Shown: piece after piece, positions 4,996 through 54,504 of the stretch
Layout: every line of letters begins with the position of its first letter
Numbering within the stretch: the stretch's first letter is position 1
Assembly: GCF_937863155.1 (NCBI RefSeq)
Contig: NZ_CALMFB010000054.1
Location: forward strand, 29,975-93,974
Reading direction: 5' to 3'
DNA from: an uncultured Brevundimonas sp.
Lineage (GTDB): Bacteria > Pseudomonadota > Alphaproteobacteria > Caulobacterales > Caulobacteraceae
DNA: 64,000 bases
Program-made: the position numbers and the translations under genes
The notes under the pieces: generated by a model
Databases searched by the model: none
Told to the model about the DNA's origin: nothing
The model's input: only the letters and a program-made list of their open reading frames with translations

Positions 4996-5021
4996 ATGAC
5001 CTCCTTGCCGCTCGCGGCAAA

Positions 5022-5041: not shown

Positions 5042-5089
5042 GTCTACCCGCTCTAACCGATTGATTTAGATACGTAAATCTACGGTAGT

Positions 5090-5131: not shown

Positions 5132-5137
5132 GGCGGG

Positions 5138-6583: not shown

Positions 6584-6647
6584 GGCTTCAACCCCAAGCA
6601 ATGGAAGGGGCGAAGCCTATCGGGCGGCATGCGCGAAGGTAAGGGCC

Positions 6648-6905: not shown

Positions 6906-6988
6906 GTCGGATCAGGCTCGGCGGATCGGGAAGCGCGGTTGATAGCGGGCCGATGGCCCGGCGCCAACCACGCGCTGTGGGCCGTGCG

Positions 6989-39858: not shown

Positions 39859-42800
39859 CGGGCGGTCTCCTTGGCGTTGAGGGGTTCGTCCAGCCAGTCG
39901 ACCTTGTTCATCTTGCGCACGACCACGAATTCATCGCGGTTCGAGCCGACCGTGCCGTAGTAGTTGAAGCCGTAGGCCAGCTGGACGTAGCCGCCGATCA
40001 TGTGCGTCGGCTTGGGCACGATGCGGGTGACCGAGTTGTGGATGCCGCCGCGCCGGCCGGTGATCTGCGACCCCGGCGTGTTCACGATCTTCTCCTGGGC
40101 GTGGTACATGAAGGTCGTCCCCTCACGCATCCGCTGCGACACCACCGCCCGCGCCGAGATGGCGCCGTTGGCGTTGAACAGCTCGACCCAGTCGTTGTCG
40201 ATGATGCCGGCCTTCTGGGCGTCCGTCTCCGAGATCCAGATGACCGGCCCGCCACGGTTCAGCGTCAGCATCATCAGATTGTCGGAATAGGTGGAGTGGA
40301 TGCCCCACTTCTGGTGCGGGGTGATGAAGTTCAGGACGATCTCGGTCTCGCCATTGGGCTTCATGCCCTTGACCCAGGTGGTCTTGAGATCCAGCGGCGG
40401 GCGATAGACGCACAGCGCCTCGCCGAAGGCGCGCATCCACAGGTGGTCCTGATACAGCTGCTGGCGGCCCGTCAGGGTGCGCCACGGGATCAGCTCGTGC
40501 ACGTTGGTATAGTTGGCCGTGTAGCAGACATGCTCGGACTCCAGCCCCGACCAGATCGGCGACGAGATGATCTTGCGCGGCTGGGCCACGATGTCGCGGA
40601 AGCGGATCTTCTCCTCTTCCTTGGGCAGGGCCAGGTGGGTGTGATCGCGCCCCGTGACCCGCGACAGCGACGCCCACGACTTGACCGCCACCTCGCCGTT
40701 GGTTTCCGGCGCCATCATCAGCACCGCCTCGCAGGCGTCGATGGCGCTCTCCATCTTGGGCAGGCCCTTGGACACGCCTTCGTCCAGCACTTCGCCGTTC
40801 AGGGCGCGCAGCAGGTCGATCTCGTGCTCGGTGTTCCAGGCCAGGCCCTTGCCGCCGTTGCCGATCTTGGTCATCAGCGGGCCGATAGAGGTGAACTGCT
40901 TGTAGAGGTTGGGATAATCCCGCTCGACCACCGTGATCTGGGGCATGGTGCGGTTGGGGATGGGATCGCATTCCCCGTGCCACCAGTCCTTCACGTCGAA
41001 CGGCTGGGCCAGTTCGCCGGGGCTGTCGTGCTGGATCGGGGTCAGCACCACGTCCTTCTCGACGCCCAGAACCTCGGGACAGATGTCCGAGAAGGTCTTG
41101 GCCAGGCCGCGGAAGATGTCCCAGTCGGACCGCGACTCCCACGCCGGGTCCACGGCCGCCGTCAGCGGGTGGATGAAGGGGTGCATGTCCGAGGTGTTGA
41201 GGTCGTTCTTCTCGTACCAGGTGGCGGTCGGCAGAACGATGTCCGAATAGACGGCGGTGGTGGACATGCGGAAGTCCAGCGTCACCAGGAGGTCCAGCTT
41301 CCCTTCGGGGGCGTCGTCATGCCACGCCACCTCATTGGGCTTGGCCTTGCCGGCTTCGCCCAGATCCTGACCCTGCACCCCGTGGGCGGCGCCCAGAAGG
41401 TGCTTCAGGAAATACTCGTGGCCCTTGCCCGAGGACCCCAGCAGGTTCGAGCGCCAGACGAACATGTTGCGCGGCCAGTTGGCCGGATCGTCCGGGTCCA
41501 TGCAGGACATTTCCAGCGACCGGTCCTTCAGCCGCTGGACGGCGTAATCCTTGGGATCGACGCCCGCTTCGACGGCCTGACGCGCCACCTCCAGCGGATT
41601 GGTCTTCAGCGCCGGGGCCGAGGGCAGCCAGCCCAGGCGTTCCGCCTTGGCGTTGAAGTCGATCAGCGAGCCGGACCAGTCTCCGTCCGGCGCCGTGGGC
41701 GACAGGATTTCGTCCGCCGAGACGGTCTCGTACCGCCACTGGTCGGTGTGGGCGTAGAAGAAGGAGGTCGAGTTCTGCTGACGCGGCGGACGCAGCCAGT
41801 CCAGCGCAAAGGCCACCGGCGCCCAGCCCGACTGGGGCCGCAGCTTCTCCTGACCGACATAGTGGGCCCAGCCCCCGCCCGACTGACCCACGCAGCCGCA
41901 CATCACCAGCATGTTGATGACGGCGCGATAGTTCATGTCCATGTGGAACCAGTGGTTCATCGCCGCGCCGATGATGACCATGGACTTGCCGTTGGTCTTT
42001 TCGGCGTTGGTCGCGAACCCGCGCGCCGTGGCGATGATCTGGTCGCGCGGCACCGAGGTGATGGCCTCGGCCCAGGCGGGCGAATAGGGCTGGGCGTCGT
42101 CGTAGTCGGTCGGCATGGCCTCGCCGCCGAAGCCTTGATCGACGCCGTAGTTGGCCAGGAACAGATCATAGACGCTGGCCACCAGGGCCTCGCCCTCGAC
42201 CAGTTTCATCCGCTTGACCGGCACATTGCGCACCAGGACGTCGGGGTGGTCGGTTGAGGCGAAGCCGTTGGAGGCGGTGTTGGCGAAATAGGGGAAACGG
42301 ACGCCCGCCACCTCGTCATGCACGCCCTTCAGGCCCAGGCGCAGTTTCGTCTCGCGTCCGTCGGCGGCTTTCTCCTCCAGGTTCCAGCGGCCCTGCTCGC
42401 CCCAGCGGAAGCCGACCGAGCCGTTCGGCACGACCACCTCGCCTGTGGTCTCGTCGAGGGCGACGGTCTTCCATTCGGGATTGTTGGCCTGGTCCAGTGA
42501 GCCGTCGAAGTCCGACGCGCGCAGCAGGCGTTCGGGAACCAGTCCGCCGTCCTGCGGCACCAGCCGCACCAGCATGGGCAGGTCCGAATACTGGCGCACA
42601 TAGTCGCGGAAGTAGGGCACTTCCCGGTCGACGTGGAATTCCTTCAGGATCACGTGGCCGAACGCCATGCCCAGGGCCGCGTCCGTGCCCTGTTTCACCG
42701 CCAGCCACAGGTCGCCGAATTTCGAGGCTTCGGAATAGTCGGGGCAGATGACCACCGACTTGGCCCCGCGATAGCGCGCCTCGGTATAGAAGTGGGCGTC

Positions 42801-43586
42801 CGGCGTGCGGGTCTGGGGCACGTTCGAGCCCCAGAGCAGCATGAAGCCCGAGTTGTACCAGTCGGCCGATTCCGGCACGTCGGTCTGCTCGCCCCAGGTC
42901 TGGGGCGAGGCGGGCGGCAGGTCGCAATACCAGTCGTAGAATGAGCCGCAGACCCCGCCCAGCAGCTGCAGGTAACGGGCGCCGGCCGCATAGGACAGCA
43001 TCGACATGGCCGGGATGGGCGAGAAGCCGAACACCCGGTCCGGGCCCCAGCGCTGGATCGTGTGGGCGTTGGCGGCCGCGATCAGCTCGTTCACCTCGTC
43101 CCAGGTGGCGCGCACGAAGCCGCCCGAGCCGCGCATCTGCACATAGTCGGCGCGCGCGGCCGGATCGTCCTGGATCGAGGCCCAGGCCGCGACCGGCGTC
43201 AGGGTCGCCCGCGCCGCGCGCCAGCGCTTCAGCAGACGGCCGCGGATGAGCGGGTATTTCACCCGGTTGGCGGAATACAGATACCAGCTGTAGCTGGCGC
43301 CGCGCGCGCAACCGCGCGGCTCATGGTTCGGCAGTTCGGGCCGGGTGCGCGGATAGTCGGTCTGCTGCGTCTCCCAGGTGACGATGCCGCCCTTGACGTA
43401 GATCTTCCACGAGCACGAGCCGGTGCAGTTCACCCCGTGGGTCGAGCGCACGATCTTGTCGTGGCGCCAGCGGTTTCGATAGGACTCTTCCCAGCTGCGG
43501 TCGTCGTCGTTCATGACGCCGTGGCGGTCGGAGAAGAGTTCGGTCTTGCGCTTGAAGAAGGCCAGACGGTCCAGGGTGTTGCTCAT
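39855..43586 (-). CDS. narG: Respiratory nitrate reductase alpha subunit
   Basis: HDKIVRSTHGVNCTGSC, SFYDWYCDLP, TPHQKWGIHSTY. Confidence 0.98.
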   Translation of the reverse strand: MSNTLDRLAFFKRKTELFSDRHGVMNDDDRSWEESYRNRWRHDKIVRSTHGVNCTGSCSWKIYVKGGIVTWETQQTDYPRTRPELPNHEPRGCARGASYSWYLYSANRVKYPLIRGRLLKRWRAARATLTPVAAWASIQDDPAARADYVQMRGSGGFVRATWDEVNELIAAANAHTIQRWGPDRVFGFSPIPAMSMLSYAAGARYLQLLGGVCGSFYDWYCDLPPASPQTWGEQTDVPESADWYNSGFMLLWGSNVPQTRTPDAHFYTEARYRGAKSVVICPDYSEASKFGDLWLAVKQGTDAALGMAFGHVILKEFHVDREVPYFRDYVRQYSDLPMLVRLVPQDGGLVPERLLRASDFDGSLDQANNPEWKTVALDETTGEVVVPNGSVGFRWGEQGRWNLEEKAADGRETKLRLGLKGVHDEVAGVRFPYFANTASNGFASTDHPDVLVRNVPVKRMKLVEGEALVASVYDLFLANYGVDQGFGGEAMPTDYDDAQPYSPAWAEAITSVPRDQIIATARGFATNAEKTNGKSMVIIGAAMNHWFHMDMNYRAVINMLVMCGCVGQSGGGWAHYVGQEKLRPQSGWAPVAFALDWLRPPRQQNSTSFFYAHTDQWRYETVSADEILSPTAPDGDWSGSLIDFNAKAERLGWLPSAPALKTNPLEVARQAVEAGVDPKDYAVQRLKDRSLEMSCMDPDDPANWPRNMFVWRSNLLGSSGKGHEYFLKHLLGAAHGVQGQDLGEAGKAKPNEVAWHDDAPEGKLDLLVTLDFRMSTTAVYSDIVLPTATWYEKNDLNTSDMHPFIHPLTAAVDPAWESRSDWDIFRGLAKTFSDICPEVLGVEKDVVLTPIQHDSPGELAQPFDVKDWWHGECDPIPNRTMPQITVVERDYPNLYKQFTSIGPLMTKIGNGGKGLAWNTEHEIDLLRALNGEVLDEGVSKGLPKMESAIDACEAVLMMAPETNGEVAVKSWASLSRVTGRDHTHLALPKEEEKIRFRDIVAQPRKIISSPIWSGLESEHVCYTANYTNVHELIPWRTLTGRQQLYQDHLWMRAFGEALCVYRPPLDLKTTWVKGMKPNGETEIVLNFITPHQKWGIHSTYSDNLMMLTLNRGGPVIWISETDAQKAGIIDNDWVELFNANGAISARAVVSQRMREGTTFMYHAQEKIVNTPGSQITGRRGGIHNSVTRIVPKPTHMIGGYVQLAYGFNYYGTVGSNRDEFVVVRKMNKVDWLDEPLNAKETAR

Positions 43587-43589
43587 GGG

Positions 43590-44984
43590 TCAGGCCGCCG
43601 TGCTGTGGGAAACATTCAGGAGCGAGCCGCGCCGGGCGTAGTACAGCCAGTTGATCACCGCGCAGCTCAGGTAGAAGCCGAGGAAGATGTAGAGGGCCAG
43701 GGCGGGGTCGCCGGTCGCCTTCATCGAGTTGGCGAAGGCCAGGGGAATGAAGAAGCCGCCATAGGCGCCGATGGCCGACGAGAAGCCGACGATGGCCGCC
43801 GATTCCCGCTCTGACGCCTTCAACCGCTCTTCCGACGTGGCGCCGGGCATCAGGCGCGGCATGTCCGCCCGCACCAGGGCCGGGATCATCTGGAAGGTCG
43901 AGGCGTTGCCCACGCCGGTCCAGAAGAACAGCCAGAGGAAGCTGGCGAAGAACAGGCCGAAGGTCGCCTCTGCGCCAAACACGCCGATGCTGTAAAGCAC
44001 GCCCAAGACGCCGATCAGCAGGGCGCCGAAGACGATCTGGGTGACATTGTGCCCGCCCCACCGGTCCGAGACCCAGCCCGTCAGCGCCCGCGACGCGGCG
44101 CCGACCAGCGGCCCCAGGAAGGCGATCTGCAGGATGTTCACGTCCGGGAACAGGGTCTTGCCCAGCAGGGGAAAGGCCGCCGAGAAGCCGATGAACGAGC
44201 CGAAGGTGCCGATGTAGAGGTAGCACATCAGCCAGTTGTGCTTGCGCTTGAACACCACGGCCTGCTCGCGGAACGAGGACTTGGCCGAGGCCACGTCGTT
44301 CATGCCGAACCAGGCGGCGACGGCGGCGATCAGGATGAAGGGAACCCAGAAGAAGCCCGCGTTCTGCAACCAGACCTGGGTCTCGACGCCGTTGGCGACA
44401 GCGGTCTGGGGCGCGCCGGCGATCGATCCGAACACGGCCAGGCCGGTGACCAGAGGCGCGGCGAACTGCAGGGCGCTGACCCCCAGATTGCCGAAGCCGG
44501 CGTTCAGGGCCAGGGCGTTGCCCTTCTCGCTCTTGGGAAAGAAGAAGCCGATGTTGGCCATGGACGAGGCGAAGGCCCCGCCGCCCAGGCCGCAAAGCAG
44601 CGCCAGGACGATGAACACCGAATAGGGCGTCGTCACATCCTGCACCGCCATGCCGATGCCGATGGCCGGGATCAGCAGCGACAGGGTCGACAGCGTCGTC
44701 CACAGCCGCCCGCCGACGATCGGCGGCATGAAGCCGTAGAAGATGCGCAAGGTGGCGCCCGACAGGGCCGGCAGGGCCGTCAGCCAGAACAGTTCGGACG
44801 TCGAGAACTGGAAGCCGATGCTGTTCAGCCGCGTGGCCGCCGTGGACCACAGCATCCAGACCGAAAAGGCCAAGAGCAGGTTGGGGATCGAGATCCACAG
44901 GTTGCGCCGGGCGATCCGGCGGCCGGTGGCGCGCCAGAAGTCGGGGTCTTCGGGGCGCCAGTCATGAAGCACGTGTCGGGACAT
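43590..44984 (-). CDS. narK: Nitrate/nitrite antiporter, NarK2-type
   Basis: WRPEDP.FW...ARRNLWIS, GGAFASSM, GNASTFQMI. Confidence 0.93.
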   Translation of the reverse strand: MSRHVLHDWRPEDPDFWRATGRRIARRNLWISIPNLLLAFSVWMLWSTAATRLNSIGFQFSTSELFWLTALPALSGATLRIFYGFMPPIVGGRLWTTLSTLSLLIPAIGIGMAVQDVTTPYSVFIVLALLCGLGGGAFASSMANIGFFFPKSEKGNALALNAGFGNLGVSALQFAAPLVTGLAVFGSIAGAPQTAVANGVETQVWLQNAGFFWVPFILIAAVAAWFGMNDVASAKSSFREQAVVFKRKHNWLMCYLYIGTFGSFIGFSAAFPLLGKTLFPDVNILQIAFLGPLVGAASRALTGWVSDRWGGHNVTQIVFGALLIGVLGVLYSIGVFGAEATFGLFFASFLWLFFWTGVGNASTFQMIPALVRADMPRLMPGATSEERLKASERESAAIVGFSSAIGAYGGFFIPLAFANSMKATGDPALALYIFLGFYLSCAVINWLYYARRGSLLNVSHSTAA

Positions 44985-45003
44985 GGGCAGAAGCGTCCTT
45001 GCG

Positions 45004-46362
45004 CTAGCGAGCGTCGCGTCCTGCCGTCGGCAGGCCGTGCAGTTCGGGGAATTCAGGCAGTTGCGAGAGAGCCGGGACGTGGGCGCGCTCCATCCGGCCG
45101 ATGGCCAGGTGCATCCACAGCAGCGCCGCGCCGACCAGGACGAACAGCAGCATGAAGCAGCTGGTGGCGACACCGGTCAGGTCGTTCAGCATCCCGAAGG
45201 TGATCGGCAGCACGAACCCGCCCAGGCCGCCGATCATGCCGACCAGGCCGCCGACCGAACCGATATGGCCGGGATAATAGACGGGGATGTGCTTGTAGAC
45301 CGCCGCCTTGCCCAGGCTCATGGCGAAGCCCAGCACGAACACCAGCACCACGAACAGCGGCAGGCCGATGGCCATGTGGAAGGCGATGGGGCCCTTGGTT
45401 CCCTCGACCACATAGCTGGTGGCCGGATAGGACAGGATGAAGGTGCAGAGCACGCTGACGACAAAGGTCAGATACATGACCTTGCGCGCGCCGATGCGGT
45501 CGGACAGCCAGCCGCCGAAGATGCGGAACACCGAGCCGGGCACCGAATAGGCGGCGGCCAGCATGCCGGCGGTCTTGATGTCCAGATCATAGACGCCGGT
45601 CAGATAGCGCGGCAGCCACAGCGCCAGGGCGACAAAGCCGCCGAAGACGAAGAAGTAATAGAGCGAGAACCGCCACACCCGCAGATCCTTCAGCGGGGTC
45701 AGCTGCAGCCAGGCCGCCTGGGGCTTCTGGCCCGTGGCCCGGCGCGCGACCAGATCGGGATCGTCGCGCGTCAGCAGGAAGACCAGCACGCCGATGACCA
45801 GCAGGGCCGCCGCCCAGATCTGGGCCACCGCTTCCCAGCCCATGGCGATCATGACGAAGGGGGCGGCGAATTTGGTCACGGCCGAGCCGACGTTGCCCGC
45901 CCCGAACACGCCCAGGGCCGTGCCCTGTTTTTCCTTGGGGAAGAATTTCGACACATAGGTCACGCCGACCGAAAAGGCCCCGCCGGCGATGCCGACGCCC
46001 AGGGCGGCGATCAGAAACTGCGGATAGGTTTCGGCATAGGTCAGCAGGAAGGTGGCCCCGGCCGCCAGGATCATGACGATCAGATTGACCACCCGTCCGC
46101 CGTACTGTTCGGCCCAGACGCCCAGGATCACCCGGATCAGCGACCCGGTCAGAATGGGGGTGCCGACCAGCAGTCCGAACTGGGTTTCGTTCAGCCCCAG
46201 CTCGGCCTTGATCTGGACGCCGATGATCGAAAAGATCGTCCAGACCGCAAAACAGGCGGTGAAGGCGAAGGTGCTGAGCCACAGGGCCGTCTGCGCGCCC
46301 TTGTGTTGAAGCGGGGCCCCGCCTGCATTCGCCCCGACACCGCCGTTCGCGCCCGTCGCCAT
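45004..46362 (-). CDS. narK: Nitrate transporter, NarK1-type
   Basis: AFTACFAVWTIFSIIG, GTALGVFGAGNVG, GKAAVYKHIP. Confidence 0.92.
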   Translation of the reverse strand: MATGANGGVGANAGGAPLQHKGAQTALWLSTFAFTACFAVWTIFSIIGVQIKAELGLNETQFGLLVGTPILTGSLIRVILGVWAEQYGGRVVNLIVMILAAGATFLLTYAETYPQFLIAALGVGIAGGAFSVGVTYVSKFFPKEKQGTALGVFGAGNVGSAVTKFAAPFVMIAMGWEAVAQIWAAALLVIGVLVFLLTRDDPDLVARRATGQKPQAAWLQLTPLKDLRVWRFSLYYFFVFGGFVALALWLPRYLTGVYDLDIKTAGMLAAAYSVPGSVFRIFGGWLSDRIGARKVMYLTFVVSVLCTFILSYPATSYVVEGTKGPIAFHMAIGLPLFVVLVFVLGFAMSLGKAAVYKHIPVYYPGHIGSVGGLVGMIGGLGGFVLPITFGMLNDLTGVATSCFMLLFVLVGAALLWMHLAIGRMERAHVPALSQLPEFPELHGLPTAGRDAR

Positions 46363-46432
46363 CTCGCGACCTCCCGAAACCTGGAGATTGTCTCCGTCGG
46401 GAAGGATGTGCGCCGTGCGTGATCAGTACGGC

Positions 46433-46446
46433 TTGCTGTTTATCAA
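46433..46446. promoter_or_regulatory. FNR-type box upstream of narK1
   Basis: TTGCT-GTTT-ATCAA. Confidence 0.65.
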
Positions 46447-46589
46447 GCGCACCCTAGACGCCGGTCCAGAATTCAAAACCAGTTGCGCGATGACAGGGAT
46501 TTTATTGAGAGCGAAAATCAATAGCTAAACTAGACGGCGATGAGTTGTCTTGACGCAAAGCGCTGTCGCGCCGGGGCGGACACACTGGC

Positions 46590-46603
46590 TTGATGAAAGT
46601 TAA
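46590..46603. promoter_or_regulatory. FNR-type box upstream of the divergent Crp/Fnr gene
   Basis: TTGAT-GAAA-GTTAA. Confidence 0.5.
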
Positions 46604-46630
46604 CCGCCAGAATCGGCCGGAGGGCGTCCG

Positions 46631-47416
46631 ATGACCATGCGAACGTCTGATCTGAACCGGATCAAGGCGCTGCCGTTGTTCGCCAGCCTGCCCGACGAGA
46701 CGTTCCGCGACGCGACCGCCGGATCGTTTCTGCAGCGTTTCCCCGCCGGCACCACCTTGCTGATGGAAGGGGATCCGGTCGACTTCCTGTATGTGCTGCT
46801 GGACGGCATCGTCGAACTTCAGGGGTCTTGGAAGGACAAGGAAACCACCCTGGCCGTGCTGCGGCCCGTGTCGACCTTCATCCTGGCGGCGGTCATGCTG
46901 GACGCCCCGGCCTTGATGTCGGCGCGGACGCTGGAGCGGTCCGAGATTCTGATGCTGTCGGGCGAGGCCCTGCGACGCACGGCGCGGATGGACGCCGGCT
47001 TCGGCTATGCCGTCGCGCGCGAACTGGCGGGTTGCTATCGGGGTCTGGTGCGGTCGGTGAAGAACCAGAAGCTGCGCGGCGGGACCGAGCGGCTGGCCAA
47101 CTATCTGCTGACCCAGCGGGTGCGCCAGAACGGTCGCGCGACCATCGTCCTACCGCACGAAAAGCGGGTGCTGGCCTCTTTGCTGGGCATGACGCCCGAG
47201 AACCTGTCGCGGGCCTTTGCGGGGCTGGCCGGGCACGGCGTGTCGGTCAATGGTCCCGAAGTGACCATCGCCAAGCCCCAGTTGCTGGAGCGACTGGCCC
47301 GTCCCTCGCCGCTGATCGACAATCATATGCCGCCGCCCAAGCAACCGCTGGGCAAGGCCGAAATCGAAAGCTGGCCGCCGGACCCCAAACAGCCGGTCGC
47401 GCCCTTCGGCGGATAA
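46631..47416 (+). CDS. Crp/Fnr regulator (FtrB/NarR/DNR-like)
   Basis: cNMP-like domain; ERLANYLL; HEKRVLASLLGMTPENLSRAF; divergent from the nar operon. Confidence 0.85.
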   Translation: MTMRTSDLNRIKALPLFASLPDETFRDATAGSFLQRFPAGTTLLMEGDPVDFLYVLLDGIVELQGSWKDKETTLAVLRPVSTFILAAVMLDAPALMSARTLERSEILMLSGEALRRTARMDAGFGYAVARELAGCYRGLVRSVKNQKLRGGTERLANYLLTQRVRQNGRATIVLPHEKRVLASLLGMTPENLSRAFAGLAGHGVSVNGPEVTIAKPQLLERLARPSPLIDNHMPPPKQPLGKAEIESWPPDPKQPVAPFGG

Positions 47417-47431
47417 GGCGAGCGCCGCGGA

Positions 47432-48424
47432 TCAGCCGCCGAACTGCGCCAGGTTGCGGGTGTCGCCCGGTCGGGCCAGATGCAGGTCGTGGCCCGACGC
47501 CTTGCCGGTCAGGGCCGAACGCACCGCCGCCTGCAGGGCCTCGCGCTGGTCGTCGTCTGACAGGAAGGGGCGCAGATCCACGCCGCCCTGGCCGAACAGG
47601 CACAGACGCAACCGTCCCCGCGCCGTGACCCGCAGCCGGTTGCAGCTGTCGCAGAAGCCCGGCGCATAGGGCGCGATCAGGCCGATGGCGCCGCGATGGT
47701 CGGGATGCCGGTACTCGATCGCCGGCCCGGCGTCGCCCGAACGCGGCGCCGGCGTCCATCCCCGCTGGTCCAGCCAGTCGCGCAGGACGCCGCCGCCGAC
47801 ATGATGGTCCGCGAAATAGTCGGCGTTGTCGCCGGTCCGCATCAGTTCGATGAACCGCGCCGACACCGGCCGGTCGCGCACGAAATCGGCCCAGGCCTGG
47901 AAGCCCGCCTCGGCGGTCTCCTTCAGCAGAACGGCGTTGACCTTCACTGCCTGATACCCGGCGTCCAGCGCCGCCTCGATCCCGTCCAGAACCATCGGCA
48001 GGCGGTCGTGACCGGTGATCCGGGCGAAGGTTTCCCGCTCCAGGCTGTCGATGCTGACGTTCAGATGCGACAGGCCCGCCGCGCGCCAGCGATCGACGTG
48101 CCGCACCAGATTCCAGCCGTTGGTCGTGACCGCCACCTTGCCGACGCCCGGCTGGGCCGCGACGCGGGCGACGATGTCGGTGAAGTCCCTGCGCACCGTC
48201 GGCTCGCCGCCGGTCAGCCGCACCTTGCCCAGGCCCAGATCGGCGAAGGCGCCGACCAGGCGGCCGATCTCGTCCACGTCCAGATAGGACATCGGCCCGG
48301 TCTTCTTGAAGCCATCGGGCAGGCAGTAGGTGCAGCGGAAATTGCACACCTCCGTCACCGACAGGCGCAGATAGCGGAAACGCCGGCCGAAGCCGTCGAC
48401 GGCGGCGTGGCCTTCAAAGGCCAT
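47432..48424 (-). CDS. moaA: GTP 3',8-cyclase MoaA
   Basis: YLRLSVTEVCNFRCTYC, KVRLTGGEP, FCDSCNRLR...LRLCLF, C-terminal GG. Confidence 0.97.
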   Translation of the reverse strand: MAFEGHAAVDGFGRRFRYLRLSVTEVCNFRCTYCLPDGFKKTGPMSYLDVDEIGRLVGAFADLGLGKVRLTGGEPTVRRDFTDIVARVAAQPGVGKVAVTTNGWNLVRHVDRWRAAGLSHLNVSIDSLERETFARITGHDRLPMVLDGIEAALDAGYQAVKVNAVLLKETAEAGFQAWADFVRDRPVSARFIELMRTGDNADYFADHHVGGGVLRDWLDQRGWTPAPRSGDAGPAIEYRHPDHRGAIGLIAPYAPGFCDSCNRLRVTARGRLRLCLFGQGGVDLRPFLSDDDQREALQAAVRSALTGKASGHDLHLARPGDTRNLAQFGG

Positions 48425-48430
48425 TTGGAA

Positions 48431-48546
48431 GCTCCTTTCCAAACACGGGAGGCGAAGCGGTTTCCCGCCGCGCCCTCGGCCCCTTTCGGAGCCCGGCCGG
48501 CCGACCCTGGCGCATGGCGTTAGGTCGGACGGCTCGGAGCGAACTC
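48431..48546 (-). ncRNA. Moco RNA motif (molybdenum cofactor riboswitch)
   Basis: CUCCGAGC...ACCUAA...GGGAAACC...GCCUCCCGUGUUUGGAAAGGAG immediately 5' of moaA, covering its SD. Confidence 0.85.
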
Positions 48547-48602: not shown

Positions 48603-48616
48603 TTGATGAAGATCAA
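48603..48616. promoter_or_regulatory. Perfect FNR box upstream of the Moco riboswitch/moaA
   Basis: (GC)TTGAT-GAAG-ATCAA(GC); overlaps the nnrS stop. Confidence 0.85.
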
Positions 48617-49806
48617 GCCGGGCGCAGATCGGGCCGGGGTTTCAGCAGCATGGGGCCATAGATCAGGGCGAACCCGCCAAAGGCCGCGCTCCACAGCACG
48701 GTCGAGACGATCAGGCCGGGGACGTGCAGATCGGGAACCAGGCCGGCCGTCACGCGCGCCATCGCCGCCAGATTGACCGCGACATAAAGCAGGCTGGTGC
48801 CCCAACCTGCGGCCAGGGGGCGCCCCGTATGCCCGCGGCTGGCGCGGGTGGTCATGGCCAGGATCATCACCCCCATGGCGCCGGCGGTCAGGGCGTGTAT
48901 CCCGGCCGAAATGGGAACGCTTGCCCCCACCGCCGACAGGCCCATCAGGATCAACGCCACCGGCAGCCACAGATATCCCATGTGCAGGATCAGCACGAGC
49001 GGCTCGGCCCCCGTGCGCCACCCGCGCCAGCGCGCCAGCCGCACCAGATGCAGCGCACCGACCCCCGCCAGCAGGGCGCCGACCGCCCCCGCTTCGGGCG
49101 ACATGACCCAGGCCCCCAGGGTCACGACCGTGGCGATCAGCACGGCCTGGTCGAACCGACCGGCCGGCGGCGCGGGCAGAGGACCGCCCCTGCGCACCAG
49201 CCAGTTGCGCGTGAAACTGGGCGTCACCCGCCCGCCGATCAGCGCCAGCAGCATGGCCACCGCCGCCAGGGCCAGGCGCAGGAACAGGTCCAGACCGGCC
49301 GGCTCGACGCGCAGATGAACCCCGACATCGGCCAGGGCGAACAGGCTGGCCAGGACGGCGACCGGCAGGTTGCGCCAGTTGCGCCCGGCCAGAACCTCGC
49401 GCCAGATCACGCCCGCGAAGACGACCAGGAAGACCGCGTCGATGCTGGCGACCCAGGCGGGCAGGCCCAGCATCGGCGCCGCCAGCATGGCCGCCCGTCC
49501 CGCCAGCCACAGCAGAAACAGCCCCGCCAGCGGCGCCCCGACCACCGGCAGACGCCCGGTCCAGTTCGGCACGGCAGTCAGCAAGAAACCCGCCACGATG
49601 GCCCCGACGAAGCCGAACAGCATCTCGTGAATGTGCCAGTCCAGCCCGATCCCCGCCTGGGCCAGGGCGCCGCCATGGGCATAGGCGGTCAGCCAGATCG
49701 GCGTGGCCACGGCGGCCCAGACGGCGCCGAACAGGAAGAAGGGCCGGAAGCCGAAACAGAACAAGGCGGGGCCGCGATAGGCCCGCATGGCGGCGGCGGT
49801 GGACAT
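48613..49806 (-). CDS. nnrS: NnrS family membrane protein
   Basis: GFRPFFL, WHIHEMLFG...GFLLTAVPNWTG, GGRVTPSFTRNWL, HALTAG, RASRGHTGRPL. Confidence 0.93.
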   Translation of the reverse strand: MSTAAAMRAYRGPALFCFGFRPFFLFGAVWAAVATPIWLTAYAHGGALAQAGIGLDWHIHEMLFGFVGAIVAGFLLTAVPNWTGRLPVVGAPLAGLFLLWLAGRAAMLAAPMLGLPAWVASIDAVFLVVFAGVIWREVLAGRNWRNLPVAVLASLFALADVGVHLRVEPAGLDLFLRLALAAVAMLLALIGGRVTPSFTRNWLVRRGGPLPAPPAGRFDQAVLIATVVTLGAWVMSPEAGAVGALLAGVGALHLVRLARWRGWRTGAEPLVLILHMGYLWLPVALILMGLSAVGASVPISAGIHALTAGAMGVMILAMTTRASRGHTGRPLAAGWGTSLLYVAVNLAAMARVTAGLVPDLHVPGLIVSTVLWSAAFGGFALIYGPMLLKPRPDLRPA

Positions 49807-49885: not shown

Positions 49886-50533
49886 TCAGACGGTCGCAGG
49901 CCGGCGCAGACGGTCCAGCGCCGCCAGGGCGTCGGGCGTGCAGCCCTGGGGCCGGAACGCCTGATGCGTCCAGCCGACGACGCCCATCTGGTCCAACTCG
50001 GCCTGCATCCGCGCCAGGGCCGCCGCGTCCAGCAGGCCGGGATGAACCGTGGTGCGGACCTGATAGGCCACGCCGCTGGCCAGCAGCAGACGCAGGCTGT
50101 CGCGCGCCCGGCGGCCGCTGCCGGGAACAGCGGTGGTGTCGGCATAGGCGTCGAACGGCGCCTTCACGTCGAAGCCGACCCAGTCGACCAGAGGCAGCAC
50201 CGCCGCCAGGCGCGCGGGATAGGGGCCGCCGGTATGCAGGCCGATGCGAAAGCCCATCTCGCGCACCTGGCGCATGGCGACGGGCAAGGCGGTCTGAAGC
50301 GTCGGCTCGCCGCCCGAAAACACCACCGCGTCCAGCAGGCCGCGCCGCCCCGACAGAAAGGCCAGCGCCGCCTGCCAGTCCAGACCCGTTTCCGCGCGTG
50401 GCGGGATCAGGTGCGGGTTGTGGCAATAGCCGCAGCTCCAGGGACAGCCCTGAAGAAACAGGGTCGCCACCAGTTCGCCGGGCCAGTCGCACAGCGACAG
50501 CCGCTCCAGCCCGCCGATGCGGATCTCAGCCAA
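49886..50533 (-). CDS. nrdG: Class III RNR activating radical SAM enzyme
   Basis: DWPGELVATLFLQGCPWSCGYCHNP, AVVFSGGEPTLQ. Confidence 0.92.
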   Translation of the reverse strand: MAEIRIGGLERLSLCDWPGELVATLFLQGCPWSCGYCHNPHLIPPRAETGLDWQAALAFLSGRRGLLDAVVFSGGEPTLQTALPVAMRQVREMGFRIGLHTGGPYPARLAAVLPLVDWVGFDVKAPFDAYADTTAVPGSGRRARDSLRLLLASGVAYQVRTTVHPGLLDAAALARMQAELDQMGVVGWTHQAFRPQGCTPDALAALDRLRRPATV

Positions 50534-50717
50534 GCCCGGCCTGCCGCTCGTCGAAACAGGTGCGTTCGGCGAACTCGCCCTTCTTGCCGCGGTTGAAGGA
50601 CGAGACGGGCCGGTGATAGCCCATCACCCGGGTCCAGATTTCGCACGGCTGACGCTCGTCGTCGGTCAGGGTCAGGGCGGCGGGGGCGGCGCCCCCGGCG
50701 GGCGTGGCGTCGAACAT
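50526..50717 (-). CDS. Stand-alone glycyl-radical domain of class III RNR (NrdD C-terminus, 63 aa)
   Basis: QPCEIWTRVMGYHRPVSSFNRGKKGEFAER; own SD (GAAAGGA). Confidence 0.85.
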   Translation of the reverse strand: MFDATPAGGAAPAALTLTDDERQPCEIWTRVMGYHRPVSSFNRGKKGEFAERTCFDERQAGLG

Positions 50718-50731
50718 GGTGGTTCCTTTCG

Positions 50732-52507
50732 TCAGGCTTGGGCGGCGGCCAGCCGCTTTTGGGACAGGCGTTCCTCGTCGCAGCGCGGACAGAAGGCGTG
50801 CTCGCCCTCCAGGTATCCGTGCGTCGGGCAGACCGAGAAGGTCGGGGTGATGGTGATGTAGGGCAGGCCGAACCGGGTCAGCGCCCGCTGGACCAGACGG
50901 CGACACGCCTCGGTCGAGGACAGTCGCGTGCCCATGTACAGATGCAGCACCGTGCCGCCGGTGTATTTCCGCTGCAGCACCTCTTGCCGCTCCAGCGCCT
51001 CGAACGGATCGTCGGTGAAGGCCACCGGCAGCTGGCTGGAGTTGGTGTAATAGGGCTGGTCGTCGGTCCCGGCCTGCAGGATGTCGGGGAAGCGTTTGCG
51101 GTCTTCCTTGGCGAAGCGATAGGTCGTGCCCTCGGCCGGCGTGGCTTCCAGATTGTACATGTGGCCGGTCGCGGCCTGGTATTCGACGATGCGCGCGCGC
51201 ACGTGATCCAGCAGACGCACCGCGAAGGCGTGGCCCCAGTCGGTGGTGATGTCGTGGGCGTCGTCGGTGAAGTTGCGGATCATCTCGTTGACCCCGTTCA
51301 CCCCCAGGGTCGAGAAGTGGTTTCTCAGCGTGCCCAGATAGCGTTTCGTATAGGGGAACAGGCCGTCGTCCATCAGCCGCTGGATCACGCCCCGCTTGAT
51401 CTCCAGACTGTCGCGGCCCAGGTCCATCAGCGCATCCAGCCGCGCCAGCAGCCCCGCCTCGTCCCCTTTGTAAAGGTACCCCAGGCGCGCGCAGTTCAGG
51501 GTGACCACGCCCAGGGATCCGGTCTGCTCGGCGCTGCCGAACAAGCCGTTGCCGCGTTTCAGCAGCTCGGTCAGGTCCAGCTGCAGCCGACAGCACATGG
51601 ACCGCACCATGTTGGGCTTCAGGTCCGAGTTCACGAAATTCTGGAAATAGGGCAGGCCGTATTTGGCCGTCATCTCGAACAGTCGTTCGGCGTTCTCGCT
51701 CTCCCAGGGGAAGTCGGGCGTGATGTTGTAGGTGGGGATGGGAAAGGTGAAGACCCGGCCCTTTTCGTCGCCCTTGCACATCACCTCGATGTAGGCGCGG
51801 TTGATCATGTCCATCTCGGCCTGAAGATCGCCGTAGGTGAAGTCGGCGGCCTCTCCGCCGATGATCGGGATCTCGTCGCGCAGATCTTCGGGACAAACCC
51901 AGTCGAAGGTCAGGTTGGTGAAGGGCGTCTGGGTGCCCCAGCGCGAGGGGACGTTCAGGTTGAAGATCAGCTCCTGAATATACTGGCGCACCTCGGCATA
52001 GGTCAGTCCGCCCTTGCGGATGAACGGCGCCATATAGGTGTCGAACGAGCTGAAGGCCTGGGCGCCGGCCCATTCGTTCTGAAGCGTGCCCAGGAAGTTG
52101 ACGATCTGGCCGATGGCGCTGGACATGTGGCGCGGCGGGCCGGATTCGACCTTGCCCGGCACGCCGTTGAACCCCTCGGTCAGCAGGGTGCGCAGCGACC
52201 AGCCGGCGCAATAACCCGCCAGCATGTCCAGGTCGTGGATATGCAGGTCGCCCTCGCGGTGCGCCCGCCCGACCGCCGCCGGATAGACCTGGGACAGCCA
52301 GTAGTTGGCGATGACCTTGCCCGAGACGTTCAGGATCAGCCCGCCCAGCGAATAGCCCTGGTTGGCGTTGGCGTTCACCCGCCAGTCGGCCCGCATCAGA
52401 TATTCGTTGATCGAGGACGTCACATCGACGGTGACGTCCCGTTCCGGCCCGGCCAGGGCGAAGCCCAGGTCGGGAGCCGCGGGAGCAAGAACGGTATGTT
52501 TCGTCAT
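50732..52507 (-). CDS. nrdD: Class III ribonucleoside-triphosphate reductase catalytic subunit (no ATP cone, no glycyl-radical loop)
   Basis: HIHDL...GYCAGWS, FTFPIPT, RSMCCRL, EATPAEG, YYTNS, CPTHG...CPRC followed by a stop. Confidence 0.92.
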   Translation of the reverse strand: MTKHTVLAPAAPDLGFALAGPERDVTVDVTSSINEYLMRADWRVNANANQGYSLGGLILNVSGKVIANYWLSQVYPAAVGRAHREGDLHIHDLDMLAGYCAGWSLRTLLTEGFNGVPGKVESGPPRHMSSAIGQIVNFLGTLQNEWAGAQAFSSFDTYMAPFIRKGGLTYAEVRQYIQELIFNLNVPSRWGTQTPFTNLTFDWVCPEDLRDEIPIIGGEAADFTYGDLQAEMDMINRAYIEVMCKGDEKGRVFTFPIPTYNITPDFPWESENAERLFEMTAKYGLPYFQNFVNSDLKPNMVRSMCCRLQLDLTELLKRGNGLFGSAEQTGSLGVVTLNCARLGYLYKGDEAGLLARLDALMDLGRDSLEIKRGVIQRLMDDGLFPYTKRYLGTLRNHFSTLGVNGVNEMIRNFTDDAHDITTDWGHAFAVRLLDHVRARIVEYQAATGHMYNLEATPAEGTTYRFAKEDRKRFPDILQAGTDDQPYYTNSSQLPVAFTDDPFEALERQEVLQRKYTGGTVLHLYMGTRLSSTEACRRLVQRALTRFGLPYITITPTFSVCPTHGYLEGEHAFCPRCDEERLSQKRLAAAQA

Positions 52508-52650
52508 GACGCGCATCCTGGCGATGGGACGGGCCGTCTGGCGGCCGGAACGAAACGCTAGGTGATTCGGTGCGGCGCCCCGGCCTGCGCGTCGCCGCGC
52601 CCTCTGCCGACGAAGGTTTGTCGCCTGAAGACGGACCATCAAGGTTCGCC

Positions 52651-52664
52651 TTGACCGCCATCAA
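52651..52664. promoter_or_regulatory. FNR-type box between divergent nrdD and ric
   Basis: TTGAC-CGCC-ATCAA. Confidence 0.75.
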
Positions 52665-52718: not shown

Positions 52719-53222
52719 ATGACCCTGGAAGCCACAGCGCCGGACCGACCGGACACGATGTCCGAAGCGTCGATGCCGACGCCGGCGCTGATCGCGCACA
52801 TCCTGGAACGCTATCATCAGACCCATAGGCGCGAGCTGCCCGAACTGATCGAACTGGCGCGCAAGGTCGAACGCGTCCACCGCCGGCATCCGCAGGCGCC
52901 GCTGGGGATGGGCGACCTGCTGGCCCTGATCGCGGACGATCTGGAAATGCACCAGCAGAAGGAGGAGCAGATTCTGTTCCCGATGATGCTGAACGCGGCC
53001 GGTCCGATGGTGCATCACCCCATCGCCCGCATGATGATCGAGCACGAGGACGTCGAGGCCCAGCTGGCGGTGCTGGACGAGATGAGCGACGGCCTGACCC
53101 CGCCCGCCAACGCCTGCGGTTCGTGGCGCAGGCTGTACGAAGGATGTCGGAAATTCCGCGAAGACCTGCGCGCTCACATCCGCATCGAGGACACGGTTCT
53201 GTTCCCGCGTTTCCTCGATTGA
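52719..53222 (+). CDS. Ric/YtfE-like di-iron hemerythrin protein (no N-terminal ScdA domain)
   Basis: LIAHILERYHQTHRRELP, HQQKEEQILFP, MMIEHE, HIRIED.VLFP. Confidence 0.85.
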   Translation: MTLEATAPDRPDTMSEASMPTPALIAHILERYHQTHRRELPELIELARKVERVHRRHPQAPLGMGDLLALIADDLEMHQQKEEQILFPMMLNAAGPMVHHPIARMMIEHEDVEAQLAVLDEMSDGLTPPANACGSWRRLYEGCRKFREDLRAHIRIEDTVLFPRFLD

Positions 53223-53307: not shown

Positions 53308-54504
53308 TTAAAGGGCGAGCACTTCGACCCTCTCGCCCGCCCCGGCTCCGGAGTCTCCGGCGCGGCGGCGGATCAGGACATCGCTGTCGGCCAGTGTCTT
53401 CTGGGCGCCCGAATCCTGATTGCTCGCCGGCATGACCCGGCCATCGGCCAGGCGCCGTCCACGCAGGAATGTCTCGCGCTCGCCGGTCGCCGGGACATCG
53501 CCCGCCAGTTCGGCCCAGGCCCAGGCCAGGGCGGTGCGCGGCTCGCCGCCCGCCAGGCCGTGCAAAAGCGGGGCCAGAAACAGCCGCGCCGTCACCAGGG
53601 CCGAGGTCGGATTGCCCGGCAGGCCGACCACCAGCCGCCCCCCTGCCCGGCCGATCCACACCGGCTTGCCCGGCTTGATGGCGACCTTGGAGAAGACCAG
53701 GTCCAGACCGGACGGCCCGAACATGGCCCGCGCGTGATCGCGTTCCCCCACCGAGGCGCCGCCGGTCACCACCACCACATCGGCCAGCGACAGGGCCTGG
53801 GCCGCGACGGCTTCCAGGGCGGCGGGATCGTCGGGCGCGCGGCGACGGCCCACGACCTCGGCGCCCCATTGGCGAGCCAGGGCCATGACCCCGAACGACA
53901 CGCTTTCGGGAATGGCGCCCAGCGTCTGGCGGGCCCTGCCCGGTTCGGCCAGTTCGTCGCCGGTGCCCACGACCATCAGACGGGGGCGGCGCACCACATT
54001 CACCCGATCTTGGTCGGCCGAGGCGGCGGCGACCATTGCCTGGGGCGTCAGCGTCGCGCCGGCTTTCAACAGCACATCCCCAGCCCGGAAGTCCGAACCG
54101 CGCTCGCGCACATGGCGGCCCTTGCCCGGCGCGGTCGAAAAGACCGCGTGACCGTCATCCTGGGTCACCTGTTCCTGCACCACGACCCGGTCGGCCCCCT
54201 CGGGCGTCGGGGCGCCGGTGAAGATGCGTGCGCAGGTTCCCGGAAGAAGAGGCGCAGGATCGGCGCGCCCGGCGTAGATCGTATCGACGATCGGCAGCCG
54301 CGCCGGCAGGACCGCCAGATCGGCGTCCCGGACCGCATAGCCGTCCATGGCCGAAACCGCGCGCCACGGTGCATCCGCGAACGCCGTCACGGGGGCGGCC
54401 AGCACCCGGCCGCAGGCGTCGGCCAGAAGCGCATCTTCGGCCTCCAGCGGTTGCGCCAGCCCCAGCACCAGAGCGGCGGCGTCATCGAAATCGATCATGG
54501 CCAA
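53308..54504 (-). CDS. moeA: Molybdopterin molybdotransferase
   Basis: [43 protein letters not shown]. Confidence 0.95.

What the first reader, a model, noticed from the sequence alone, without database searches (positions are those of the whole stretch)
49886..52507. Split class III ribonucleotide reductase: the glycyl-radical loop is on a separate 63-aa protein
Seen: NrdD stops shortly after its CxxH...CxxC metal site. The essential R-V-x-G-Y motif (TRVMGY) is in the next ORF, out of frame, 14 nt downstream, with its own SD and a distinct N-terminal linker, so it is not a simple frameshift. There is no ATP cone. Established: in canonical NrdD the radical glycine is in cis; a trans-acting spare radical domain is known for pyruvate formate-lyase (GrcA/YfiD). 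Inference: a replaceable radical subunit would let a facultative aerobe discard only 63 aa after O2 cleavage. The SMCCRL motif suggests the thioredoxin-dependent subtype. Split forms may already be catalogued in RNR phylogenies.
Basis: partly seen in the sequence, partly recalled or inferred. Interest (0 to 1): 0.68.

Follow-up and report, generated by a model that had tools for sequence, protein, structure and literature searches.

The report
Two-piece anaerobic ribonucleotide reductase
This bacterium makes its oxygen-sensitive, anaerobic DNA-precursor enzyme from two proteins, with the radical-bearing glycine on a separate conserved 63-residue protein; the layout is common in denitrifying bacteria, yet I found no paper that describes it.

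Summary
On the minus strand, nrdD (52507..50732, 591 aa) ends 15 residues after its C560-x2-H563-x9-C573-x2-C576 zinc site. Fourteen bases on, in another frame and behind an AAGGA ribosome-binding site, a 63-aa gene (50717..50526) carries TRVMGY. nrdG (50533..49886) overlaps that gene's stop by 8 nt.

The two pieces cover the NF006126 profile end to end (95-651 and 649-682 of 684). There is no ATP cone.

The split is not an artefact:
- 74 of 81 close homologues examined (the window, P. denitrificans and C. necator pHG1 included) have it, in all three relative frames, with gaps from -74 to +298 nt.
- The small gene's core is under purifying selection (dN/dS about 0.15).
- 13 of 16 family members in an even sample of 401 genomes are split.

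The genome has one NrdD and one small gene, so the small protein is most likely the regular radical subunit, not a spare. The operon lies in an FNR-boxed nitrate-respiration island and looks horizontally acquired.

The "disposable after oxygen damage" idea is untested. MCCR does not by itself indicate thioredoxin dependence. No paper I could search describes a split NrdD, and a 2026 review calls non-PFL spare parts an open question.

The parts
50732..52507 (-). nrdD large subunit, 591 aa. It comprises the catalytic barrel and a Zn ribbon. It has no ATP cone and no glycyl-radical loop.
   Evidence: NF006126 gives 1043.9 bits over positions 95-651 of 684. Pfam NRDD covers 2-530 of 562. It aligns to T. 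maritima NrdD 4COI residues 107-614. The exact sequence is on record at NCBI.
51584..51601 (-). Finger-loop motif S303-M-C-C-R-L308, with a double cysteine and a retained methionine.
   Evidence: It aligns to the T. maritima SCCRL motif. The interpretation follows PMC9669993.
50780..50830 (-). Zn-ribbon motif C560-x2-H563-x9-C573-x2-C576, complete within the large subunit.
   Evidence: In T. maritima NrdD the homologous C-x3-H-x6-C-x2-C motif binds Zn (PMC4493059).
50718..50731 (-). 14-nt spacer between the nrdD stop (TGA 50734..50732) and the small-gene ATG. It holds the Shine-Dalgarno AAGGA at 50728..50724.
   Evidence: An SD-like sequence precedes the small gene in 68 of 72 split homologues.
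50526..50717 (-). Small glycyl-radical subunit gene, 63 aa. The N-terminal ~20 residues are variable. The core is ERQPCEIWTRVMG33YHRPVSSFNRGKKGEFAERTCF.
   Evidence: NF006126 positions 649-682 and Pfam NRDD 530-561. 2984 clusters of stand-alone relatives exist. dN/dS is 0.15. In a read-through AlphaFold model of a homologue the core forms a beta-hairpin with Gly at the turn, with block-mean pLDDT 81-94.
50616..50633 (-). T29-R-V-M-G33-Y34, the glycyl-radical motif. G33 is the predicted radical site.
   Evidence: Its counterpart is Gly621 of T. maritima NrdD (PMC4493059). WTRVMGY is nearly invariant in 81 homologues.
49886..50533 (-). nrdG, the radical-SAM activase, 215 aa. Its TTG start overlaps the small-gene stop by 8 nt.
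   Evidence: TIGR02495 NrdG2 gives 185.8 bits against a cut-off of 131.15. The activase motif lies within 400 nt downstream of the glycine-bearing gene in 65 of the 66 loci where it was found, often overlapping it.
52651..52664 (.). FNR/Crp-type palindrome TTGACCGCCATCAA. It lies 144 nt upstream of nrdD, in the divergent intergenic region shared with a hemerythrin gene.
   Evidence: There are 2 matches to TTGAYN4RTCAA in 64 kb, against 0.09 expected. A Crp/FNR-family regulator gene lies at 46631-47416.

Best explanation
The locus encodes an obligately two-chain class III (anaerobic) ribonucleotide reductase.

The 591-aa chain is the catalytic barrel. It carries the substrate site, the bottom-face Cys100, the M304-C305-C306 finger loop and a complete C/H/C/C zinc ribbon. 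The chain stops in the surface linker that, in one-piece relatives, joins the zinc ribbon to the glycyl-radical loop.

The next gene makes a 63-aa protein whose conserved core is that missing loop. NrdG, a radical-SAM activase translationally coupled to the small gene, abstracts a hydrogen from Gly33. The loop sits inside the barrel opposite the finger-loop cysteine. The radical then passes Gly33 to Cys to substrate, as in single-chain NrdD.

The three genes form one operon, probably induced by an FNR-type regulator together with the neighbouring nitrate-respiration genes.

Shown here:
- the gene architecture;
- its conservation and purifying selection;
- exact complementarity of the two pieces to the family profile;
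- the absence of any other NrdD or second small gene in the genome.

Inferred:
- assembly of the two chains;
- activation of the small chain by NrdG;
- enzyme activity;
- FNR control.

Any advantage of the split is speculation. Candidates are easier access of the activase to a normally buried glycine, or loss of only the small chain after oxygen cleavage.
For: - The two products tile NF006126 (95-651, 649-682) and Pfam NRDD (2-530, 530-561) without gap or overlap.
- The large chain aligns to T. maritima NrdD up to the last Zn ligands, ending just before Gly621.
- 74 of 81 homologues examined at 74-86% identity (the window, pHG1 and P. denitrificans included) are split at the same place. Gaps run from -74 to +298 nt, relative frames 0/1/2 number 16/23/33, and the small gene has its own ATG plus SD in 68 of 72.
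- Five natural fusions show the join: CPxC, then a 3-27 aa linker, then CEVWTRVMGY.
- The small core has dN/dS 0.15.
- 13 of 16 NF006126 members in an even sample of 401 genomes are split.
- There are 2984 clusters of stand-alone small proteins.
- The own genome has one NrdD and one small gene.
- Gene order large, small, nrdG is conserved, often with overlapping stop and start.
- In an AlphaFold model of a natural read-through (Thiobacillus locus L036, TGA read as Gly), the small core folds with block-mean pLDDT 81-94 as a hairpin with Gly at the tip. The whole model matches NrdD structures at TM 0.6-0.7.
- In C. necator H16 pHG1, RefSeq lists a 676-aa large gene, a 66-aa 'nrdD' and the activase. 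[quoted passage not shown]
Against: - There is no biochemical or proteomic evidence here that the small protein is made, carries the radical or binds the large chain.
- The structure tool returns no coordinates. I could not verify that the Gly loop is modelled next to the finger loop, and the finger loop itself has pLDDT below 50.
- The model used an artificial tether, and it came from a homologue, not the window's own proteins.
- In this high-GC window the small gene's frame stays open for 712 codons upstream. A frameshifted fusion product cannot be excluded from this sequence alone.
- One homologous locus (L043) has neither a small gene nor nrdG within 3 kb of nrdD.
Confidence: 0.85

Rival explanations
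1. Exchangeable radical cartridge. The split exists because oxygen cleaves the chain at the glycyl radical. With the radical on a 63-aa protein, only that piece is lost. The 66-kDa barrel is then re-armed by a fresh, NrdG-activated copy, as GrcA/YfiD does for pyruvate formate-lyase.
For: - The host is a nitrate respirer that also carries a class I/II RNR (PF02867), so it is probably a facultative aerobe.
- Many split loci come from denitrifiers.
- The precedent of GrcA is well documented (PMC13450708).
- The radical glycine is buried in single-chain NrdD, so a free chain would also be easier to activate (PMC4493059).
Against: - There is a single small gene, inside the operon, translationally coupled to nrdD and nrdG. 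It has no separate promoter or stress-linked copy.
- No glycine-bearing NrdD exists to be repaired.
- Split forms also occur in Sutterella, Coriobacteriia, Chromatiaceae, Elusimicrobia and Omnitrophota. Fused forms occur in Maricaulis, Cellulomonas and Propionicimonas, so lifestyle does not sort them (physiology from general knowledge).
- A later check recorded in the scan's notes put low odds on a related, bolder spare-part claim (a lead only).
Confidence: 0.2
2. Broken gene or sequencing or assembly artefact. nrdD suffered a frameshift near its 3' end, and the enzyme is dead or mis-assembled.
For: The two pieces are adjacent and out of frame by one base pattern, as a single indel would produce.
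Against: - The same break point is found in 74 of 81 homologues examined, from many phyla, in all three relative frames and with very different spacers.
- Each small gene has its own start and SD.
- dN/dS is 0.15.
- Identical 591-aa and 63-aa products appear in independent assemblies.
- The split pHG1 system is reported as essential for complete denitrification.
Confidence: 0.02
3. Programmed recoding. A ribosomal frameshift or stop read-through near the nrdD stop yields a normal one-piece NrdD, and the small ORF is not translated on its own.
For: In this window the small gene's frame is open far upstream (712-codon ORF). A shift into it would therefore give a fusion.
Against: - No conserved geometry exists. 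Gaps run from -74 to +298 nt, all three frames occur, and several pairs overlap.
- In many lower-GC relatives the small frame is closed within about 10 codons of its ATG; stop-to-stop segments are 56-75 aa.
- SD plus ATG are conserved.
- No Rfam element was found in the region.
Confidence: 0.03

Closest known systems
Single-chain class III RNR of the NrdD2 / NrdDh type (T. maritima NrdD, PDB 4COI/4U3E; N. bacilliformis NrdD), with its NrdG activase
   Same: - The same family profile (NF006126 / PF13597).
- A barrel with the bottom-face Cys (Y99-C100, matching Tm Y124-C125).
- A double-Cys finger loop.
- Glu454 aligned with Tm Glu495.
- A C/H/C/C zinc ribbon and an RVxGY radical loop.
- An adjacent NrdG2-type activase.
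   Different: - The chain is cut between the zinc ribbon and the radical loop, so the radical glycine is on a separate 63-aa protein.
- The large chain gains a ~15-aa tail, and the small chain gains a ~20-aa variable N-terminus.
- There is no ATP cone here.
- The finger loop keeps a Met (MCCR), unlike the SCCR of the two characterised enzymes.
- An extra, nearly invariant Cys lies 8 residues before the Gly (CEVW); T. maritima has none there.
GrcA/YfiD of E. coli and Y06I of phage T4 (autonomous glycyl-radical cofactors for pyruvate formate-lyase)
   Same: A small free-standing protein consisting essentially of a glycyl-radical loop. It is presumably activated by the cognate radical-SAM activase and works by inserting into the barrel of a larger glycyl-radical enzyme (PMC13450708).
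   Different: - GrcA backs up a PFL that has its own glycine and is separately regulated. Here the large chain has no glycine, so the small protein is the only radical carrier.
- The small protein is homologous to the NrdD tail, not the PFL tail. Pfam reported only NRDD for it, with no Gly_radical (PF01228) match at E<=0.01.
- It is encoded inside the nrdD-nrdG operon.
Split class II RNR NrdJa/NrdJb of Pseudomonas aeruginosa
   Same: An RNR catalytic chain naturally divided near its C-terminus into two adjacent genes, with the C-terminal functional module on the second protein (PMC4860495, PMC9669993).
   Different: It is class II (adenosylcobalamin) with no glycyl radical. [quoted passage not shown]
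Glycyl-radical enzymes with small accessory subunits (benzylsuccinate synthase beta/gamma, 4-hydroxyphenylacetate decarboxylase small subunit)
   Same: Multi-subunit glycyl-radical enzymes with subunits under 100 aa encoded beside the catalytic gene (general knowledge).
   Different: In those enzymes the radical glycine stays on the large catalytic chain, and the small subunits carry Fe-S clusters or structural roles.

Membership tests
Class III RNR catalytic subunit NrdD (NF006126 / PF13597) | Whole-protein profile score above the curated cut-off | tested here: met
   The large chain scores 1043.9 bits on NF006126 (cut-off 548) and 572.8 bits on PF13597 (cut-off 26.2).
Class III RNR catalytic subunit NrdD (NF006126 / PF13597) | Finger-loop cysteine and bottom-face cysteine of the active site | tested here: met
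   S303-MCCR-L308, and Y99-C100 aligned with Tm Y124-C125 (PMC4493059).
Class III RNR catalytic subunit NrdD (NF006126 / PF13597) | C-terminal Zn ribbon | tested here: met
   C560-x2-H563-x9-C573-x2-C576. It is homologous to the Zn-binding C-x3-H-x6-C-x2-C of tmNrdD. Metal binding itself was not tested.
Class III RNR catalytic subunit NrdD (NF006126 / PF13597) | Glycyl-radical motif RVxGY on the same polypeptide | tested here: not met
   The large chain ends at A591, at profile position 651 of 684. TRVMGY is on the next, separate 63-aa product at profile 649-682.
Class III RNR catalytic subunit NrdD (NF006126 / PF13597) | Adjacent radical-SAM activase NrdG | tested here: met
   TIGR02495 NrdG2 scores 185.8 bits (cut-off 131.15), and the gene overlaps the small gene's stop.
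Class III RNR catalytic subunit NrdD (NF006126 / PF13597) | Anaerobic NTP reduction dependent on a glycyl radical | not testable with these tools
   This needs anaerobic reconstitution and EPR.
NrdD2 subtype (Wei et al. 2014, as summarised in PMC4493059 and PMC9669993): thioredoxin-type reduction | Third cysteine (double-Cys finger loop) plus an active-site glutamate | tested here: met
   C305-C306 are present. E454 aligns with Tm E495. That E495 is the diagnostic Glu is from my memory of Wei et al.; that paper was not readable here.
NrdD2 subtype (Wei et al. 2014, as summarised in PMC4493059 and PMC9669993): thioredoxin-type reduction | Absence of the finger-loop methionine (thioredoxin-only prediction) | tested here: not met
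   M304 is present (MCCR). PMC9669993 says such enzymes could use formate or thioredoxin.
GrcA/YfiD-type spare-part protein | Homology to the PFL glycyl-radical domain (Pfam Gly_radical PF01228) | tested here: not met
   Pfam returns only NRDD for the 63-aa protein at E<=0.01.
GrcA/YfiD-type spare-part protein | Coexists with a full-length enzyme that has its own radical glycine, which it replaces after damage | tested here: not met
   The own genome has one NrdD, which lacks the glycine, and one small gene.

The most novel reading that the evidence does not exclude
A large clade of class III ribonucleotide reductases consists of obligate two-subunit glycyl-radical enzymes. The clade includes those of model denitrifiers such as C. 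necator H16 and P. denitrificans. In these enzymes the radical sits on a free ~7-kDa protein that NrdG loads off the barrel and that exchanges on the large subunit. After oxygen exposure, only the small chain would then need replacing. This would be the first glycyl-radical enzyme with its radical domain always supplied in trans, and it would answer the question, called open in a 2026 review, of whether spare-part-like proteins exist outside pyruvate formate-lyase.
Probability: 0.2. Interest if true: 0.8.

Novelty: new variant of a known kind. Interest (0 to 1): 0.62.

Why it matters
Glycyl-radical enzymes are taught as single chains that carry their own radical glycine, with GrcA/YfiD of pyruvate formate-lyase as the one known exception. 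A 2026 review says it is still undetermined whether other glycyl-radical enzymes have such proteins (PMC13450708).

Here the anaerobic ribonucleotide reductase has its radical loop on a separate, strongly conserved small protein. The same holds in most members of its family across many proteobacteria, including genetically tractable denitrifiers.

This gives a natural system to ask three questions:
- how an activase reaches a glycine that is buried in the assembled enzyme;
- whether radical domains can exchange;
- how oxygen damage is handled.

It also matters for annotation and genetics:
- The small gene is easily missed or labelled hypothetical.
- The C. metallidurans genome paper names NrdDG as Rmet_5137/5139 and skips 5138.
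- Work on 'nrdD' and 'nrdG' in these organisms may have overlooked a third gene.

Tried and rejected
**Literature**
- Seven full-text searches and targeted reads of RNR phylogeny papers, the T. maritima structure paper, a P. aeruginosa RNR paper and two GRE reviews found no split NrdD.
- Wei et al. 2014 (PMC4246965) and Siedow et al. 1999 (PMC93980) are not held. I could not check whether either mentions the small ORF.

**Reads**
Independent assemblies with identical products substitute for this.

**Other searches**
- GenBank phages: only one weak hit to this small protein.
- Rfam: nothing between 49500 and 53300.
- PDB by sequence with the 63-aa protein: no hit.

**Phylogeny**
- The tree of 82 large chains has an unresolved backbone. 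The five fused forms need 4 changes on the tree, but well-supported branches force only 1. The number and direction of split and fusion events is undecided.

**Structure**
- The AlphaFold output gives no coordinates. I could not test whether the small chain's invariant Cys25 approaches the zinc site, or whether the large-chain tail contacts the small chain's N-terminus.

**Readings rejected**
- Sequencing artefact, pseudogene, programmed frameshift, intron (the gap is only 14 nt), and a GrcA-type spare for an intact NrdD.
Full report
**What is in the sequence**

Everything lies on the minus strand.
- nrdD runs 52507..50732 and encodes 591 aa.
- Its stop codon (TGA 50734..50732) is followed by 14 nt that contain AAGGA at 50728..50724.
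- An ATG at 50717 then opens a 63-aa gene ending at 50526.
- nrdG starts with TTG at 50533, overlapping the small gene's stop by 8 nt, and ends at 49886.

The large protein contains Y99-C100, the finger loop S303-MCCR-L308, E454 and the motif C560-PT-H563-x9-C573-PR-C576. It ends 15 residues later. The small protein reads MFDATPAGGAAPAALTLTDDERQPC25EIWTRVMG33YHRPVSSFNRGKKGEFAERTC54FDERQAGLG.

**Do the two pieces make one NrdD?**

Yes. The evidence:
- NCBIfam NF006126 (684 positions) matches the large protein over 95-651 at 1043.9 bits (cut-off 548). It matches the small one over 649-682.
- Pfam NRDD gives 2-530 and 530-561 of 562.
- nrdG is an NrdG2-type activase (TIGR02495, 185.8 bits).
- Against solved structures, the large chain aligns with T. 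maritima NrdD from residue 107 to 614, just past the last zinc ligands.
- The paper on that structure places a Zn ribbon (C-x3-H-x6-C-x2-C) between the last barrel strand and the C-terminal loop carrying Gly621. That loop dips into the barrel to meet the finger loop (PMC4493059).

The cut therefore falls in the linker between the zinc ribbon and the radical loop. The zinc site is complete in the large chain.

**Is the split real?**

I fetched 80 loci encoding close relatives (74-83% identity) from one-genome-per-species contigs.
- Among those 80 loci, 73 have the radical motif in a separate reading frame segment, 5 are natural fusions, one contig ends too early, and one (L043) has no small gene nearby.
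- With the window, P. denitrificans and C. necator pHG1 counted as well, the tally used elsewhere in this report is 74 of 81 homologues split (73 named fetched loci plus the window; the two plasmid loci are also split).
- Spacers range from -74 (overlap) to +298 nt, median 31.
- Relative frames 0/1/2 occur 16/23/33 times.
- 68 of 72 small genes have an SD-like sequence.
- Small proteins are 49-105 aa, median 62. They have a variable N-terminus and a nearly invariant core, CEVWTRVMGYHRPVxSFNxGKxxExxERxxF.
- Over that core the median pairwise dN/dS is 0.15 at dS about 1.

The five fusions show how the pieces join: CPxC, a linker of 3-27 residues, then CEVWTRVMGY.

The wider picture agrees:
- A search restricted to short proteins found 2984 clusters of stand-alone relatives. 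Some are named 'anaerobic ribonucleoside-triphosphate reductase' or 'hypothetical protein' by their sources.
- The window's exact 591-aa and 63-aa products are on record at NCBI and in independent ENA and Logan assemblies.
- In an even sample of 401 genomes of the phylum, 16 carry a family member above cut-off. Of these, 13 are split and 3 are fused.
- Other NrdD families in that sample, apparently the one-piece E. coli-like kind, match right up to profile position 680-681, past the radical-loop region.

These results rule out a sequencing artefact or a pseudogene. The variable geometry rules out a conserved frameshift or read-through.

**Well-studied organisms**

- The megaplasmid pHG1 of Cupriavidus necator H16 has a 676-aa 'ribonucleoside triphosphate reductase', a 66-aa 'nrdD' (WP_011154154.1) and the activase overlapping it.
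[quoted passage not shown] The same paper names the C. metallidurans genes as Rmet_5137 and Rmet_5139, skipping the gene between them.
- From memory, Siedow et al. 1999 gave NrdD as 76.2 kDa, which fits the 676-aa large chain alone. I could not read that paper.
- Paracoccus denitrificans is also split. Its large chain is the window's closest relative at 86% identity.
- Bradyrhizobium, Ralstonia, Thiobacillus denitrificans, Stutzerimonas stutzeri and several Pseudomonas species share the layout.

**Structure prediction**

The tool folds single chains only, so I used a natural in-frame case. In Thiobacillus locus L036 the two genes are separated by TGA plus 27 nt. I read TGA as Gly and used an alignment of 135 rows taken unchanged from the loci.
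- Mean pLDDT is 82.8 and pTM 0.85.
- The tether has pLDDT 60-67.
- The small chain's core has block-mean pLDDT 81-94 and forms a two-strand hairpin with the glycine at the turn, followed by a helix.
- The finger loop is poorly defined, with pLDDT below 50. PMC9669993 reports low finger-loop confidence and alternative conformations for double-cysteine NrdDs.
- The model matches T. maritima, P. copri, S. thermophilus and T4 NrdD structures at TM 0.6-0.7.

No coordinates are returned. Placement of the loop beside the finger loop is therefore inferred from homology, not checked.

**Context and regulation**

The operon sits in a nitrate-respiration island. The island carries two MFS transporters at 43590-46362 and the nitrate reductase alpha and beta subunits at 38335-43586. 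It also has a Crp/FNR-family regulator at 46631-47416, moaA, an NnrS gene directly downstream of nrdG, a divergent hemerythrin gene, and moeA.

Two FNR-type palindromes occur in the 64-kb window against 0.09 expected. One lies at 52651-52664, 144 nt upstream of nrdD. The other lies at 48603-48616, upstream of moaA.

The genome is 2.79 Mb in 77 contigs.
- It holds one small gene and one NrdD.
- It holds a class I/II RNR large subunit.
- None of 5 same-genus and 4 same-family genomes has an NrdD. The one same-order genome that has one carries a fused form.

Acquisition by horizontal transfer, together with the denitrification genes, is likely.

**Mechanism**

The best-supported reading is an obligate heteromer. 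The barrel and zinc ribbon are on the large chain, and the radical loop is on the small chain. NrdG generates the Gly33 radical, and radical transfer to the finger-loop cysteine follows as in one-piece enzymes.

Because the large chain has no glycine and there is no second NrdD, the small protein is the regular part, not a spare.
- The small gene is single.
- It is coupled within the operon.
- The named split and fused organisms do not sort by oxygen lifestyle (with physiology from general knowledge).

An alternative benefit is easier access of NrdG to a glycine that is fully buried in the assembled enzyme (PMC4493059).

On the reductant, MCCR with its methionine, together with C100, the double cysteine and E454, fits NrdD2 / NrdDh (probably h4). 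PMC9669993 states that such enzymes carry the elements for both formate and thioredoxin.

**Comparison with the literature**

- RNR phylogeny papers describe split class II (NrdJa/NrdJb) but not split class III.
[quoted passage not shown] - Earlier notes of this scan report the same layout in several hundred other genomes and likewise found no description. They are not independent evidence. Where I tested their claims, namely conservation, denitrifiers and NF006126 tiling, my results agree.

**Verdict**

This is a new variant of a known enzyme. It is widespread and already called as a separate gene by annotation pipelines, but it is apparently undescribed functionally. The window's own case adds three features: the missing ATP cone, the FNR-boxed nitrate-respiration setting, and probable horizontal acquisition.

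Noticed in passing
window 52651-52664 and 48603-48616: Two perfect FNR/Crp-type palindromes (TTGACCGCCATCAA and TTGATGAAGATCAA) occur, against 0.09 expected by chance. One lies between nrdD and the divergent hemerythrin gene. The other lies upstream of moaA.
   Followed up: partly
window 38335-48442 and 53308-54504: A nitrate-respiration island flanks the operon. It holds nitrate reductase alpha and beta subunits, two MFS (NarK-like) transporters, a Crp/FNR-family regulator (46631-47416, +), moaA and moeA. An NnrS gene (48613-49806, -) lies directly downstream of nrdG, and a hemerythrin-domain gene (52719-53222, +) is divergent from nrdD.
   Followed up: partly
own genome (G000) and its relatives: None of 5 same-genus and 4 same-family genomes has an NrdD. 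One same-order genome has a fused form without an ATP cone. The window's large chain is closest to that of Paracoccus denitrificans (86% identity). The operon therefore looks horizontally acquired.
   Followed up: partly
window 50634-50645 (small protein Cys25): A nearly invariant cysteine lies 8 residues before the radical glycine (CEVW/CEIW) in both split and fused family members. T. maritima NrdD has none at that position. In the shortest fusion (L075) it follows the CxxC by only 3 residues. It could be a fifth metal-site candidate or a redox residue; its function is unknown.
   Followed up: no
window 50735-50779 (large-chain tail) and relatives: In the seven split examples printed, the large chain carries a 10-15-aa tail after the last CxxC with a loosely conserved pattern (DxExLxxKR...). 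It is predicted helical in the model. Four of the five natural fusions lack it, while the Maricaulis fusion (L066) has a similar stretch. It may help hold the small chain.
   Followed up: no
window 50526-52664, minus strand: The small gene's frame stays open for 712 codons upstream and overlaps nrdD in another frame. This is a high-GC artefact that could mislead gene callers. The real start is the ATG at 50717, as in Paracoccus (MFD...).
   Followed up: yes
L043 (uncultured betaproteobacterium) 4708-7674: This truncated nrdD is followed by a membrane protein that looks like a nucleobase permease and by a protein resembling uracil phosphoribosyltransferase (both judged by eye). Neither a small gene nor nrdG lies within 3 kb. 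In genome G198 the small gene is on a different contig from nrdD. The pieces are therefore not always adjacent.
   Followed up: partly
L007, L016, L031, L053, L079 and genomes G277, G079: Loss of the ATP cone recurs in several split relatives (Castellaniella, Allopusillimonas, Janthinobacterium, Pseudomonas sp. GM84). It is independent of the split itself, since most split forms keep the cone.
   Followed up: partly
L081 (C. necator H16 pHG1) 3432-3632; C. metallidurans Rmet_5138: Published accounts name only nrdD and nrdG in these model strains (Rmet_5137 and Rmet_5139). The small gene between them goes unremarked, although RefSeq annotates it as a 66-aa 'nrdD'.
   Followed up: partly
own genome contigs C32 and C49: The class I/II RNR large-subunit gene (PF02867) is broken across contig ends in this draft assembly. 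Its class (NrdA or NrdJ) was not determined.
   Followed up: no
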